Origin: Escherichia coli 042
Lineage (GTDB): Bacteria; Pseudomonadota; Gammaproteobacteria; Enterobacterales; Enterobacteriaceae
Reading direction: 5' to 3' (one strand)
Assembly (NCBI RefSeq): GCF_000027125.1
Contig: NC_017626.1
Length of the DNA stretch: 64,000 nucleotides
This document shows positions 14,141 to 59,351 of the stretch, piece by piece. The stretch's first letter is position 1, and every line of letters begins with the position of its first letter. The position numbers were made by a program, and so were the translations under genes. The notes beneath the pieces were generated by a model that was not told the DNA's origin, did no database searches, and saw only the letters and a program-made list of their open reading frames with translations.

Positions 14141-15397
14141 ATGCTCCATCCGCGAGCCAGAACCATGTTGTTATTATCGCTCCCCGCCGTGGCAATTGGG
14201 ATTGCGTCCAGTCTTATTCTGATTGTGGTGATGAAAATCGCCTCGGTATTACAGAATTTGCTCTGGCAACGACTGCCGGGAACTCTGGGGATAGCCCAGG
14301 ATTCACCTTTCTGGATCATCGCCATATTAACGCTAACAGGTATTGCGGTGGGGTTGGTTATCCGTTTCAGCCAGGGGCATGCCGGACCAGACCCCGCCTG
14401 TGAACCGCTGATCGGCGCACCAGTTCCGCCCTCTGCGCTACCAGGACTTATCGTAGCATTAATTCTCGGTCTTGCTGGCGGCGTCAGCCTGGGGCCGGAA
14501 CATCCGATCATGACCGTCAATATCGCCCTTGCGGTTGCCATTGGCGCTCGTCTGTTACCGCGCGTCAACCGAATGGAGTGGACTATTTTAGCCTCTGCCG
14601 GCACCATCGGCGCGCTGTTTGGCACACCTGTTGCGGCGGCGTTGATATTTTCGCAAACCTTAAATGGCAGTAGTGAAGTTCCGCTATGGGATCGTCTTTT
14701 TGCGCCATTAATGGCGGCAGCAGCTGGTGCACTTACTACCGGATTATTTTTCCATCCCCATTTTTCACTGCCCATTGCGCATTACGGACAGATGGAAATG
14801 ACCGATATTCTCAGCGGTGCAATTGTCGCGGCGATTGCCATCGCAGCAGGGATGGTCGCCGTATGGTGCTTACCACGGTTGCACGCGATGATGCATCAAA
14901 TGAAAAATCCGGTGCTCGTGCTGGGTATTGGCGGATTTATTCTCGGTATTCTGGGGGTTATGGGTGGACCAGTTTCGCTGTTTAAAGGGCTGGATGAGAT
15001 GCAGCAGATGGTGGCAAATCAGGCTTTCAGCACCAGCGATTACTTTTTGCTGGCGGTGATTAAACTTGCCGCCCTGGTCGTTGCTGCCGCCAGTGGCTTT
15101 CGCGGTGGACGAATCTTCCCGGCAGTGTTTGTCGGCGTGGCATTAGGGTTGATGCTGCATGAGCACGTTCCCCCCGTTCCAGCGGCAATAACCGTTTCCT
15201 GCGCTATTCTCGGCATCGTGCTGGTGGTAACACGCGATGGCTGGTTAAGTCTTTTTATGGCGGCAGTCGTTGTACCCAATACCACATTGCTACCGCTGCT
15301 CTGTATCGTCATGCTTCCGGCATGGCTGTTATTAGCAGGTAAGCCGATGATGATGGTCAATCGTCCGAAGCAACAGCCACCCCACGATAACGTTTAG
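14141..15397 (+). CDS. yfeO: putative ion-channel/transport membrane protein
   Basis: 418-aa polytopic ORF recognised as YfeO. Confidence 0.85.
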
Positions 15398-15511
15398 CAA
15401 AAAATGCTCTCCTTTATGATTTAAGAGTTATGGCGATGATACGGGGCTTTACCTCCCCGTAATATTGCGTTAACAGGCCGCTGACGGCTTCGATCGTGAA
15501 GGAGAATAACA

Positions 15512-15838
15512 ATGTTCAGGTCACTGTTTCTGGCGGCCGCCCTGATGGCATTTACCCCGCTTGCGGCAAACGCAGGTGAAATCACCCTACTGCCATCAAT
15601 CAAATTACAAATTGGCGATCGCGATCATTACGGTAATTACTGGGACGGTGGTCACTGGCGCGACCGTGACTACTGGCATCGCAATTATGAATGGCGTAAG
15701 AACCGCTGGTGGCGTCATGATAATGGCTACCATCGTGGCTGGGATAAGCGTAAAGCGTATGAGCGTGGCTATCGTGAAGGCTGGCGCGATCGTGACGATC
15801 ATCGCGGAAAAGGCCGCGGACATGGACATCGCCATTAA
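15512..15838 (+). CDS. ypeC: small secreted protein rich in His/Arg/Asp/Trp/Tyr (DUF2502-like)
   Basis: 108-aa ORF with signal peptide ([21 protein letters not shown]) followed by low-complexity RDxxYW / HRGW repeats. Confidence 0.8.
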
Positions 15839-15862
15839 ACGCGTCCGTCAATGGAGCACAAT

Positions 15863-15951
15863 GCCTGATGCGACGCTAGCGCGTCTTATCAGGCCTACAA
15901 ACCGTCTCTTTAACGCGTAGGGCGGATAAGGCGTTTTACGCCGCATCCGCC
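15863..15951. repeat. REP pair (BIME-like) between ypeC and mntH
   Basis: gcctgatgcgacgctagcgcgtcttatcaggcctac and gggcggataaggcgttttacgccgcatccgcc, canonical REP palindromes. Confidence 0.7.
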
Positions 15952-15979
15952 AATGGTGCCAGATGCGACACCAGCTGAA

Positions 15980-17227
<1,248 letters not shown>

Positions 17228-17230
17228 CTA

Positions 17231-17252
17231 AAACATAGCCTTTGCTATGTTT
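17231..17252. promoter_or_regulatory. MntR operator upstream of mntH
   Basis: dyad AAACATAGC-N4-GCTATGTTT, 13 bp upstream of the mntH start codon. Confidence 0.7.
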
Positions 17253-17289: not shown

Positions 17290-17553
17290 TAAATGGGTTG
17301 TGGTGATTTCTCTGATAGACCAGGATTATGACTACGAAAAGATTGATGACTTGAATGTTATGGTTATGTTTAATGTTAGCACATTTACATAACTTTCAGC
17401 TTCCATACACAACATAGCAGAAATGTATGACAGCTCACTATTTTTGAAGCTGGTCACAGGACGTCATTATAGTGTGTGTCAGATCTCGTTTTCCTTAACC
17501 ATGTTACATAGAATGTGCACGGAAATTTAACCTGCCTCATATTTGGAGCAAAT

Positions 17554-18756
17554 ATGGACCGCGTCCTTCATTTTGTACTGGCACTTGCCGTTGTTGCGAT
17601 TCTCGCACTGCTGGTAAGCAGCGACCGCAAAAAAATTCGTATCCGTTATGTTATTCAACTGCTTGTTATCGAAGTGTTACTGGCGTGGTTCTTCCTGAAC
17701 TCCGACGTTGGTTTAGGCTTCGTGAAAGGCTTCTCCGAAATGTTCGAAAAACTGCTCGGATTTGCCAACGAAGGGACTAACTTCGTCTTTGGTAGCATGA
17801 ATGATCAAGGCCTGGCATTCTTCTTCCTGAAAGTGCTGTGTCCAATCGTCTTTATCTCTGCACTGATCGGTATTCTCCAGCACATTCGCGTGTTGCCGGT
17901 GATTATCCGCGCAATTGGTTTCCTGCTCTCCAAAGTCAACGGCATGGGCAAACTGGAATCCTTTAACGCCGTCAGCTCCCTGATTCTGGGTCAGTCTGAA
18001 AACTTTATTGCCTATAAAGATATCCTTGGCAAAATCTCCCGTAACCGTATGTACACCATGGCAGCAACGGCGATGTCCACCGTGTCGATGTCCATCGTTG
18101 GTGCATACATGACCATGCTGGAACCGAAATACGTCGTTGCAGCGCTGGTACTGAACATGTTCAGCACCTTTATCGTGCTGTCGCTGATCAACCCTTACCG
18201 TGTTGATGCCAGCGAAGAGAACATTCAGATGTCCAACCTACACGAAGGTCAGAGCTTCTTCGAAATGCTGGGTGAATACATTCTGGCAGGTTTCAAAGTT
18301 GCCATTATCGTTGCCGCAATGCTGATCGGCTTTATCGCCCTGATCGCCGCGCTGAACGCACTGTTTGCTACCGTGACTGGCTGGTTTGGCTACAGCATCT
18401 CCTTCCAGGGCATCCTGGGCTACATCTTCTATCCGATTGCATGGGTGATGGGTGTTCCTTCCAGTGAAGCACTGCAAGTGGGCAGTATCATGGCGACCAA
18501 ACTGGTTTCCAACGAGTTCGTTGCGATGATGGATCTGCAGAAAATTGCTTCCACGCTCTCTCCGCGTGCTGAAGGCATCATCTCTGTGTTCCTGGTTTCC
18601 TTCGCTAACTTCTCTTCTATCGGGATTATCGCCGGTGCGGTTAAAGGCCTGAATGAAGAGCAAGGTAACGTGGTTTCTCGCTTCGGTCTGAAGCTGGTTT
18701 ACGGCTCTACCCTGGTGAGTGTGCTGTCTGCGTCAATCGCAGCACTGGTGCTGTAA
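17554..18756 (+). CDS. nupC: nucleoside:H+ symporter
   Basis: ORF 17515..18756; start trimmed to ATG 17554 ([13 protein letters not shown]...) giving 400 aa. Confidence 0.9.
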
Positions 18757-21202: not shown

Positions 21203-21278
<76 letters not shown>

Positions 21279-21317
21279 ACGATGCGTTTACGTACCAAAT
21301 TTGCTGGGTGCAAAATT

Positions 21318-21393
<76 letters not shown>

Positions 21394-24092: not shown

Positions 24093-24168
24093 GGGTGATT
24101 AGCTCAGCTGGGAGAGCACCTCCCTTACAAGGAGGGGGTCGGCGGTTCGATCCCGTCATCACCCACCA
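24093..24168 (+). tRNA. valU: tRNA-Val (UAC)
   Basis: GGGTGATTAGCTCAGCTGGGAGAGCACCTCCCTTACAAGGAGGGGGTCGGCGGTTCGATCCCGTCATCACCCACCA; anticodon loop CUUACAA. Confidence 0.95.
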
Positions 24169-24212
24169 ACTACTTTATGTAGTCTCCGCCGTGTAGCAAG
24201 AAATTGAGAAGT

Positions 24213-24288
24213 GGGTGATTAGCTCAGCTGGGAGAGCACCTCCCTTACAAGGAGGGGGTCGGCGGTTCGATCCCGTCATCACCCACCA
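24213..24288 (+). tRNA. valX: tRNA-Val (UAC)
   Basis: identical second copy. Confidence 0.95.
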
Positions 24289-24334
24289 CTTTCTCGCCAG
24301 CTAAATTTCTTGTAACAATGTGAAGTACCGAAGT

Positions 24335-24410
24335 GGGTGATTAGCTCAGCTGGGAGAGCACCTCCCTTACAAGGAGGGGGTCGGCGGTTCGATCCCGTCA
24401 TCACCCACCA
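24335..24410 (+). tRNA. valY: tRNA-Val (UAC)
   Basis: identical third copy. Confidence 0.95.
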
Positions 24411-24414
24411 CTTC

Positions 24415-24490
24415 GGGTCGTTAGCTCAGTTGGTAGAGCAGTTGACTTTTAATCAATTGGTCGCAGGTTCGAATCCTGCACGACCCACCA
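24415..24490 (+). tRNA. lysV: tRNA-Lys (UUU)
   Basis: GGGTCGTTAGCTCAGTTGGTAGAGCAGTTGACTTTTAATCAATTGGTCGCAGGTTCGAATCCTGCACGACCCACCA; 4 nt after valY. Confidence 0.95.
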
Positions 24491-37557: not shown

Positions 37558-37655
37558 GCCGGATGCGGCGCAAACGCCTTATCCGGCCTACAAAATCATG
37601 CTAATTCAATATATTGCAGAAATATCGTAGGCCTGATAAGCGTAGCGCATCAGGC
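37558..37655. repeat. REP pair (BIME) between yfeS and cysM
   Basis: gccggatgcggcgcaaacgccttatccggcctac and gtaggcctgataagcgtagcgcatcaggc. Confidence 0.7.

Positions 37656-58868: not shown

Positions 58869-59351
<483 letters not shown>

What the first reader, a model, noticed from the sequence alone, without database searches (positions are those of the whole stretch)
15512..15838. ypeC: secreted low-complexity His/Arg/Asp/Trp/Tyr repeat protein
Seen: after a signal peptide the 108-aa protein is almost entirely short repeats ([72 protein letters not shown]). Inference: this composition would suit metal (His) or polyanion binding in the periplasm; it sits next to the mntH regulatory region (MntR and Fur boxes), but that adjacency may be coincidental.
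Basis: partly seen in the sequence, partly recalled or inferred. Interest (0 to 1): 0.2.

Follow-up and report, generated by a model that had tools for sequence, protein, structure and literature searches.

The report
ypeC: known envelope-stress secreted protein
This is the already-annotated E. coli gene ypeC, a small exported protein of unknown function (family DUF2502) that published work shows is switched on by envelope and drug stress, and nothing here ties it to the manganese transporter gene beside it.

Summary
The ORF is real: 15512-15838 (+), 108 aa, with the quoted sequence. It is E. coli ypeC, Pfam DUF2502 (E=3e-24), present in 5420 of 5426 complete E. coli genomes and under strong purifying selection (dN/dS 0.04-0.12).

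"Almost entirely short repeats" is only partly right. The composition is extreme (R+D+H+W+Y+G = 83% of the 72-aa core against 24% background), but internal repeats do not beat composition-preserving shuffles. The family shows a conserved ~45-aa module after the signal peptide (IGDRDxxGxYWDGxxWRDxxWW). AlphaFold2 predicts it confidently, and it has no PDB match. A tail follows whose sequence varies across the family but is always His-rich.

The mntH argument is wrong in detail. mntH is convergent, so ypeC abuts its 3' end and REP hairpins. The MntR box (17231-17252) lies on the far side of mntH. The adjacency holds in 66 of 80 loci, but YaaX and relatives outside that block lack an Nramp neighbour.

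ypeC has its own conserved promoter carrying the published MarA/SoxS marbox (15393-15407). Published transcriptomes show strong Rcs dependence (-24x in an rcsB mutant, +42-60x on LolCDE inhibition).

Best reading: a stress-induced periplasmic binder. Metal binding by the His tail stays possible but untested. Already known; low interest.

The parts
15393..15407 (-). marbox (GCATTTTTTGCTAAA), the MarA/SoxS binding site, in backward orientation relative to ypeC; it overlaps the yfeO stop codon
   Evidence: It is identical to the ypeC MarA ChIP-seq motif in PMC5684230, scored +++ there, and to the SoxS site in Salmonella in PMC10268841. It is the only match to GCAYNNWNNRYYAAA in the 64-kb window. 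It is conserved across genera even where the upstream gene differs.
15421..15429 (+). conserved upstream element TTAAGAGTT; a candidate RcsB half-site (TAAGA), unproven
   Evidence: Phylogenetic footprint across 24 sequences. The full RcsB box TNRGAN4TCYNA (PMC7913699) is not matched here with up to 1 mismatch.
15460..15465 (+). inferred -10 hexamer TAATAT with no recognisable -35, as expected for an activator-dependent promoter
   Evidence: Conserved in the footprint. The consensus sigma-70 scan finds no full promoter. The assignment is inferred; no TSS data were used.
15475..15490 (+). conserved GC stem-loop in the inferred 5' UTR (AGGCCG-CTGA-CGGCTT)
   Evidence: MFE fold. The GCC...GGC arms are conserved in 19 of 20 genera but with 0 compensatory changes, so the structure is not proven.
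15499..15504 (+). Shine-Dalgarno sequence AAGGAG, 7 nt before the ATG
   Evidence: Read from the sequence; conserved.
15512..15574 (+). signal peptide, residues 1-21 ([21 protein letters not shown])
   Evidence: Translation. The A-x-A site is conserved in orthologs. Judged by inspection; no predictor was available.
15575..15721 (+). DUF2502 core module, residues 22-70, motif P-x5-IGDRDxxGxYWDGxxWRDxxWW
   Evidence: Invariant or at least 90% conserved: P28, I34, G35, D36, D38, G41, Y43, W44, D45, G46, W49, R50, W55. AlphaFold2 pLDDT is 85-93 over residues 31-68 and 82 on average for the trimmed module. The unit is duplicated in tandem in 8 distant members.
15722..15838 (+). C-terminal Arg/Gly/Asp/Tyr/Trp-rich tail ending GHGHRH, residues 71-108, plus the stop codon
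   Evidence: pLDDT is below 50 for residues 73-108. The sequence is not conserved family-wide, but the tail is always His-rich. Within Enterobacteriaceae, residues 71-98 are strongly conserved.
15863..15951 (.). two REP-type hairpins (15863-15894 and 15921-15951) filling the tail-to-tail ypeC-mntH spacer
   Evidence: RNA fold -58.8 kcal/mol, z = -3.95. No canonical intrinsic terminator was found on the + strand.
15980..17218 (-). mntH (Nramp), convergent neighbour; context only, not part of the ypeC unit
   Evidence: ORF, annotation and synteny.
17231..17252 (+). MntR box of the mntH promoter (AAACATAGCCTTTGCTATGTTT); context that shows where the mntH regulatory region really lies
   Evidence: Single match in the window; sequence read.

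Best explanation
The feature is E. coli ypeC, a monocistronic gene for an 87-residue mature protein that is predicted to be exported by Sec. The protein belongs to the small family DUF2502, found in Enterobacterales with a few members in Chitinibacteraceae. It has two parts. The first is a compact Trp/Tyr/Arg/Asp-rich module of about 45 residues. The second is a flexible, basic, His-terminated tail. Published ChIP-seq shows that MarA and SoxS bind a marbox in the ypeC promoter region, and published transcriptomes show strong Rcs dependence. I infer that the conserved -10 element belongs to ypeC's own promoter. The protein is therefore made when the envelope is damaged or xenobiotic or oxidative stress is sensed, not under mntH/MntR/Fur control. 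From its size, its lack of catalytic motifs, pI of about 10 and aromatic-plus-Arg chemistry, I infer that it acts as a stoichiometric periplasmic binder. In this reading the module docks on an anionic envelope component such as LPS or phospholipid head groups, peptidoglycan or another glycan. The His-rich tail would add pH- or metal-dependent binding. Shown here or in papers: gene identity, conservation, module-plus-tail architecture, marbox, Rcs/Mar/Sox responsiveness and the tail-to-tail arrangement with mntH. Inferred: export, promoter assignment, periplasmic binder role and ligand.
For: Identity: Pfam DUF2502 at E=3e-24; annotated ypeC in 5420 of 5426 genomes; dN/dS 0.04-0.12. Architecture: conserved motif; AlphaFold2 pLDDT 85-93 for residues 31-68 and below 50 for residues 73-108; the module is duplicated in 8 distant members. 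Physical chemistry: pI about 10, net charge +7.6 at pH 7 and +17 at pH 5, GRAVY -2.1. Regulation: the marbox is identical to the published MarA site and unique in the window; it is a SoxS target in E. coli and Salmonella. Transcript levels rise 42- to 60-fold on LolCDE inhibition and fall 23.7-fold in an rcsB-disrupted O157 strain. The paralog yaaX is an RcsB regulon member. A Serratia DUF2502 promoter serves as an Rcs reporter and needs rcsB. Promoter elements are conserved across genera whatever gene lies upstream. Independence from mntH: convergent orientation, the MntR box only at 17231-17252, and family members elsewhere without an Nramp neighbour.
Against: No biochemical or genetic function is reported in any searchable paper. 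No canonical RcsB box lies upstream with up to 1 mismatch, so Rcs control could be indirect or act through a half-site. Net charge is not conserved in the family (-14 to +11), which weakens a purely electrostatic polyanion-binding model. The fold has no match in the PDB and no profile match to PDB sequences or to other Pfam families, so no ligand can be transferred by homology. Residues 71-98 are strongly conserved in Enterobacteriaceae yet predicted disordered, so the two-part picture may be too simple.
Confidence: 0.55

Rival explanations
1. One reading: YpeC is a periplasmic metal-binding or buffering protein that works through its His residues and is functionally tied to MntH and manganese or iron homeostasis.
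For: The His-rich C-terminus is the most conserved compositional trait of the family: tail His 8-32%, and 3-6 His in the last 12 residues of most members. ypeC-mntH adjacency is conserved in 66 of 80 Enterobacteriaceae loci and in Yersiniaceae. One published Rcs transcriptome study used zinc excess at low temperature as a condition (cited in PMC2731931).
Against: The genes are convergent with separate promoters. The MntR and Fur boxes are on the far side of mntH, and none lies upstream of ypeC. The YaaX, Rouxiella, Deefgea, Jeongeupia and metagenomic family members, and the P0181 locus, have no Nramp or metal gene nearby. Insertions between ypeC and mntH are tolerated. No paper found reports metal-dependent expression. 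There is no homology to RcnB beyond the signal peptide. The conserved module carries no Cys and no invariant His.
Confidence: 0.15
2. The DUF2502 module is a small glycan-binding domain for peptidoglycan or a chitin-like GlcNAc polymer. It would use a Trp/Tyr platform and shield or stabilise the cell wall when Rcs senses wall damage.
For: There are 6-8 aromatic residues with conserved Asp and Gly in about 45 residues. Published work reports induction of yaaX and other Rcs-regulated genes by colicin M, which arrests peptidoglycan synthesis. All members found outside Enterobacterales are in Chitinibacteraceae.
Against: No sequence or fold similarity to any carbohydrate-binding module. The idea rests on composition and taxonomy only.
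Confidence: 0.12
3. YpeC is a largely disordered hydrophilic stress protein of hydrophilin or holdase type, and protects periplasmic proteins or membranes non-specifically.
For: GRAVY -2.1 and Gly 14%. The tail is predicted disordered. It appears among genes up-regulated under several stressors, in a signal-peptide gene group that also lists ypfG, yjfN and yqjC.
Against: The N-terminal module is predicted to fold with high confidence and has invariant residues. The whole sequence, not only its composition, is under strong purifying selection.
Confidence: 0.1
4. The ORF is a chance open frame in low-complexity DNA, not a gene.
For: Biased sequence leaves other frames open: 119 aa in another + frame, and 83 and 76 aa on the minus strand.
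Against: dN/dS of 0.04-0.12 in the annotated frame, conserved ATG, Shine-Dalgarno and signal peptide, the Pfam family match, and strong regulated transcription in papers.
Confidence: 0.01

Closest known systems
YaaX (E. coli b0005), the DUF2502 paralog
   Same: Signal peptide plus the same module ([34 protein letters not shown]) and a His-rich tail; 52% identity. It is also an Rcs regulon member.
   Different: It sits at a different locus (thrC / yaaA, no mntH). Its tail is Pro/His-rich rather than Arg/Trp/Tyr-rich. The simple pattern scan of its 140-bp upstream region found no marbox.
Small Rcs-induced envelope proteins of E. coli (OsmB, Spy, Bdm, YmgD/YmgG, YpfG, YaiY, Ivy)
   Same: Co-induced with ypeC or yaaX by LolCDE inhibition or colicin M, or down-regulated with ypeC in the rcsB mutant; several are small proteins described as periplasmic, lipoprotein or membrane-associated.
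   Different: No sequence or fold relationship. Those with known roles act as a chaperone (Spy) or a lysozyme inhibitor (Ivy; from my own knowledge). YpeC has no assigned activity.
mar/sox/rob regulon promoters with an upstream, backward-oriented marbox (class I type; classification from my own knowledge of Martin et al. 1999)
   Same: Marbox consensus match, backward orientation, upstream of the -35 region, and MarA and SoxS ChIP binding.
   Different: The TSS was not determined here, so the exact spacing class is inferred. The gene product is not an efflux, porin-control or redox function like the classic members.
RcnB (YohN), a periplasmic protein involved in Ni/Co export
   Different: hhalign aligns only the signal peptides (probability 23%, 10 columns). 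rcnB sits beside its partner rcnA on the same strand, whereas ypeC is convergent with mntH.
Hydrophilins / LEA-like stress proteins (criteria recalled from Garay-Arroyo et al. 2000: Gly above 6% and high hydrophilicity)
   Same: Gly 14%, GRAVY -2.1, stress-induced.
   Different: YpeC is exported, Trp-rich and has a conserved module that is predicted to fold; typical hydrophilins are cytoplasmic and lack aromatic residues.

Membership tests
Pfam DUF2502 (PF10697) | HMM score above the gathering threshold over the full model | tested here: met
   85.4 bits against a cut-off of 27, E=3.1e-24, model positions 1-90 of 90. All 30 aligned relatives also hit only this family.
Pfam DUF2502 (PF10697) | N-terminal signal peptide followed by the IGDxDxxGxYWDGxxWR motif | tested here: met
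   P28, G35, G41 and W44 are invariant; I34, D36, D38, Y43, D45, G46, W49, R50 and W55 are at least 90% conserved.
Rcs regulon | Expression depends on RcsB or rises on Rcs activation | not tested
   From papers only: -23.7x in rcsB-disrupted O157 and +42/+60x on LolCDE inhibitor. The Serratia homolog's promoter requires rcsB.
Rcs regulon | RcsB box TN(G/A)GAN4TC(T/C)NA in the promoter (PMC7913699) | tested here: not met
   No match with up to 1 mismatch in 15300-15600. Only a conserved left half, TAAGA, lies within TTAAGAGTT at 15421-15429. Control may be through a half-site, a heterodimer, or indirect.
mar/sox/rob regulon | Marbox matching the consensus upstream of the promoter | tested here: met
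   GCATTTTTTGCTAAA at 15393-15407 (-), the unique match in the window, conserved across genera.
mar/sox/rob regulon | In vivo binding by MarA or SoxS | not tested
   From papers: MarA ChIP-seq peak scored +++ and listed among SoxS ChIP-exo targets; SoxS ChIP-seq peak in Salmonella.
MntR / Fur (mntH) regulon | MntR box or shared regulatory region with mntH | tested here: not met
   The single MntR box is at 17231-17252, beyond the mntH start. ypeC and mntH are convergent.
MntR / Fur (mntH) regulon | Family-wide gene linkage with Nramp | tested here: not met
   Linkage holds only in the ypeC ortholog block (66 of 80 loci). It is absent for YaaX, P0181, Rouxiella, Deefgea, Jeongeupia and a metagenomic member.
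His-rich periplasmic metal-binding proteins | Clustered His residues available as ligands | tested here: met
   C-terminus GHGHRH; tail His has a median of 17% across the family.
His-rich periplasmic metal-binding proteins | Demonstrated metal binding or metal-dependent expression | not testable with these tools
   No report found.
Tandem-repeat protein | Internal repeats that score above composition-matched controls | tested here: not met
   N-core vs C-part p=0.83; best segment pairs p=0.05-0.06. True tandem duplication of the module exists only in distant homologs.

The most novel reading that the evidence does not exclude
The DUF2502 module may be a previously unrecognised mini-fold of about 45 residues, with no PDB match, that binds a specific envelope polymer such as peptidoglycan, another GlcNAc glycan or the LPS core. 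Its His-rich tail would make that binding pH- or metal-switchable. YpeC and YaaX would then be dedicated effectors of the Rcs damage response that physically protect the wall or outer membrane.
Probability: 0.12. Interest if true: 0.5.

Novelty: already known. Interest (0 to 1): 0.2.

Why it matters
ypeC is one of the E. coli genes that are still uncharacterised. According to published transcriptomes it is also among the genes most strongly induced when the Rcs envelope-damage pathway fires, and it is a direct MarA/SoxS target. Learning what it and its paralog YaaX bind would fill a gap in how enteric bacteria protect the envelope under antibiotic, lysozyme or lipoprotein-trafficking stress. 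The present analysis does not reveal a new system. It corrects the proposed link to mntH and sharpens the description to a conserved module that is predicted to fold, followed by a His-rich tail.

Tried and rejected
1. Link to the mntH regulatory region. Rejected: the genes are convergent and the MntR box is at 17231-17252 only.
2. Functional coupling inferred from synteny. Rejected as evidence: the whole glk-(yfeO)-(ipdC-gpr)-ypeC-mntH-nupC block is conserved, and family members outside it lack an Nramp neighbour.
3. True internal repeats. Not supported against shuffles.
5. Remote sequence homology. The profile search against PDB sequences found nothing. A Pfam scan of 30 members at E up to 10 found only DUF2502. 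NCBIfam found nothing. A profile search of 5.8 billion proteins listed only DUF2502 proteins among its top 120.
6. Relation to RcnB. Only the signal peptides align.
7. Canonical RcsB box. Not found.
8. 5' UTR hairpin as a proven RNA structure. There are no compensatory changes.
9. Resemblance of the motif to YXWGXW repeats or choline-binding repeats, recalled from memory. Not tested by profile comparison, and neither appeared in the Pfam scans.
10. Literature searches for b2390 and STM2407 gave nothing useful.

Full report
**Observation**

The window is an E. coli chromosome segment with the gene order glk(-), yfeO(+), ypeC(+), mntH(-), nupC(+), pdeA(-). It starts with a typical Sec signal peptide, [21 protein letters not shown], with an A-N-A cleavage motif and no lipobox; this is by inspection.

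The mature 87-residue protein is R 18.6%, G 14%, D 11.6%, H 10.5%, W 9.3% and Y 8.1%. It has a pI near 10, net charge +7.6 at pH 7 and +17 at pH 5, and GRAVY -2.1. In the 72-aa core, R+D+H+W+Y+G make up 83%. The long ORFs of the window average 23.6%, and no other 72-aa stretch exceeds 46%. The compositional oddity is therefore real.

The word "repeats" is not well supported. WRDRD (twice) is the only repeated peptide of 5 or more residues. Self-alignments do not beat composition-preserving shuffles: p=0.83 overall, and 0.05-0.06 for the best segment pairs.

**It is a real, known gene**

- It matches Pfam DUF2502 over the full model (E=3.1e-24). NCBIfam has no model for it.
- The 701-bp region is present in 5420 of 5426 complete E. 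coli genomes and is annotated "DUF2502 domain-containing protein YpeC".
- Against orthologs in 11 genera, dN/dS is 0.04-0.12 in the annotated frame. This includes residues 71-98, which excludes a chance ORF despite open alternative frames.

**Family anatomy**

The family is small. There are 85 representatives at 50% identity among 1.84 billion proteins, and 409 loci in 100,044 species genomes. Named members are Enterobacteriaceae, Yersiniaceae, Erwiniaceae and a few Chitinibacteraceae (Deefgea, Jeongeupia, Chitiniphilus).

Alignments show that the conserved unit is not the low-complexity stretch as a whole. It is a module directly after the signal peptide: P28, I34, G35, D36, D38, G41, Y43, W44, D45, G46, W49, R50 and W55 are invariant or at least 90% conserved. 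In eight distant members the unit G(D/E)RDxxGxYWDGxxW occurs twice in tandem.

After the module the sequence diverges across the family. Net charge ranges from -14 to +11, but His stays at 8-32% (median 17%), usually clustered at the very C-terminus.

AlphaFold2 predicts the module with confidence:
- In the full-length model, pLDDT is 85-93 for residues 31-68.
- In the trimmed construct, mean pLDDT is 82 and pTM 0.58, and the mean pLDDT of all five models lies between 80 and 82.
- The predicted fold has short strands, one helix and a beta-hairpin.
- Residues 73-108 score below 50.

**Relation to mntH**

mntH (15980-17218) is on the opposite strand and convergent. ypeC therefore faces the mntH 3' end across a 141-bp spacer filled by two REP-type hairpins. 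The only MntR box in the window is at 17231-17252, just upstream of the mntH start. A sequence I read as the Fur box follows it. The statement that ypeC sits next to the mntH regulatory region is therefore incorrect.

Adjacency itself is conserved. Of 80 loci, 66 are tightly convergent, 4 have a 0.4-1.5 kb gap, and 6 Citrobacter loci carry a ~5.2 kb sugar-kinase and ABC-transporter insertion. The same block occurs in Chimaeribacter (Yersiniaceae) and in two unnamed relatives at 44-47% identity. In Pantoea a methyltransferase gene is inserted.

This is conservation of a whole block, ipdC-gpr-ypeC-mntH-nupC. DUF2502 genes elsewhere show no Nramp or metal genes nearby:
- YaaX, next to thrC and yaaA
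- the P0181 locus
- Deefgea, Jeongeupia, a metagenomic member and Rouxiella

Synteny thus gives no evidence of functional coupling.

**Regulation**

A footprint of the ypeC upstream region was made across 24 sequences. The upstream gene differs among them: yfeO in Escherichia, and the aldo-keto reductase gpr in most other genera. Conserved blocks are:
- TTTAGCAAAAARTGCT (15393-15408)
- TTAAGAGTT (15421-15429)
- a TAATAT -10 (15460-15465) with no recognisable -35
- a GC stem (15475-15490)
- AAGGAG (15499-15504)

The first block is the reverse complement of GCATTTTTTGCTAAA. That is exactly the marbox reported for the ypeC MarA ChIP-seq peak (scored +++) and listed among SoxS ChIP-exo targets (PMC5684230). 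It is also a SoxS ChIP-seq site in Salmonella (PMC10268841). It is the only match to the marbox pattern in the 64 kb.

Published transcriptomes show strong Rcs-linked responses:
- ypeC rises 42- and 60-fold on LolCDE inhibition (PMC5105897).
- ypeC falls 23.7-fold in an rcsB-disrupted O157 isolate (PMC5343319).
- yaaX is in the RcsB overexpression regulon and is induced by colicin M.
- A Serratia DUF2502 promoter is used as an rcsB-dependent reporter (PMC8470065).

I could not find the canonical RcsB box TN(G/A)GAN4TC(T/C)NA (PMC7913699) upstream of ypeC with up to 1 mismatch. Only the half-site TAAGA inside the conserved TTAAGAGTT is present. Direct RcsB binding is therefore unproven.

The 5' UTR stem is conserved but shows no compensatory changes. 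No paper in the searchable library reports metal-dependent regulation or any phenotype.

**Interpretation**

The best-supported reading is that YpeC is an exported, non-enzymatic stress protein made on envelope damage (Rcs) and xenobiotic or oxidative stress (MarA/SoxS). It consists of a folded aromatic and charged module plus a flexible His-ended tail.

I infer that it acts by binding an envelope component. The His tail could add pH- or metal-dependence to that binding. My confidence in identity, architecture and regulation is high. My confidence in the binder mechanism is roughly one in three.

A tie to mntH is unlikely. Alternatives are a glycan or peptidoglycan-binding module and a hydrophilin-like protectant.

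**Novelty**

The gene, its Pfam family and its regulators are already in databases and papers. What is added here is descriptive:
- the split into a module and a tail
- tandem duplication of the module in distant members
- conservation of tail His across the family
- the lack of any PDB match for the predicted fold
- a correction of the mntH argument

Interest is low.

Noticed in passing
L002 (whole); L055:1-12288: Two loci from the GTDB genome set look mislabelled or contaminated. A 398-bp 'Rhizobium wenxiniae' contig is 100% identical to E. coli ypeC. A 'Chryseobacterium sp. 18061' contig carries the full enterobacterial glk-yfeO-ypeC-mntH-nupC block.
   Followed up: partly
L009:6330-11480 (also L013, L014, L017, L073, L074): In six Citrobacter loci a ~5.2 kb operon lies between ypeC and mntH. 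It encodes a DeoR-HTH/PfkB kinase, a periplasmic sugar-binding protein, an ABC ATPase and a permease. The adjacency can therefore be broken with both genes still present.
   Followed up: yes
window 15393-15407 vs yfeO stop at 15395-15397: In Escherichia the ~3 kb holding ipdC and gpr, found between yfeO and ypeC in 60 of 80 loci, is absent. As a result the ypeC marbox overlaps the yfeO stop codon.
   Followed up: partly
window 15839-15979: The ypeC-mntH spacer is filled by two strong REP-type hairpins (z = -3.95), with no canonical intrinsic terminator on the + strand. Whether strongly induced ypeC transcription reads antisense into mntH is untested.
   Followed up: no
window 15475-15490: A conserved GCC...GGC stem lies near the inferred 5' end of the ypeC mRNA. 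It is conserved in 19 of 20 genera but has no compensatory substitutions.
   Followed up: yes
window 17515-17556: The mechanical ORF list starts nupC at GTG 17515. The tblastn matches to nupC orthologs were made with an ORF starting at ATG 17554.
   Followed up: no
window 58919-59299; 37592-37634; 21206-21393; 24093-24487: Rfam hits elsewhere in the window: three tandem naRNA4 (CssrE) copies, one ES036 sRNA match, two tRNAs on the minus strand and four on the plus strand.
   Followed up: no
P0213 (Pantoea stewartii DUF2502 protein): UniRef names one member 'Zinc ABC transporter substrate-binding protein'. The protein is a 116-aa DUF2502 member, so the name looks like a mis-annotation and is not evidence for metal binding.
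   Followed up: no
L093, L094; P0307: All DUF2502 members found outside Enterobacterales belong to Chitinibacteraceae (Deefgea, Jeongeupia, Chitiniphilus), a chitin-degrading betaproteobacterial family. This suggests horizontal transfer and is possibly a hint about the ligand.
   Followed up: partly
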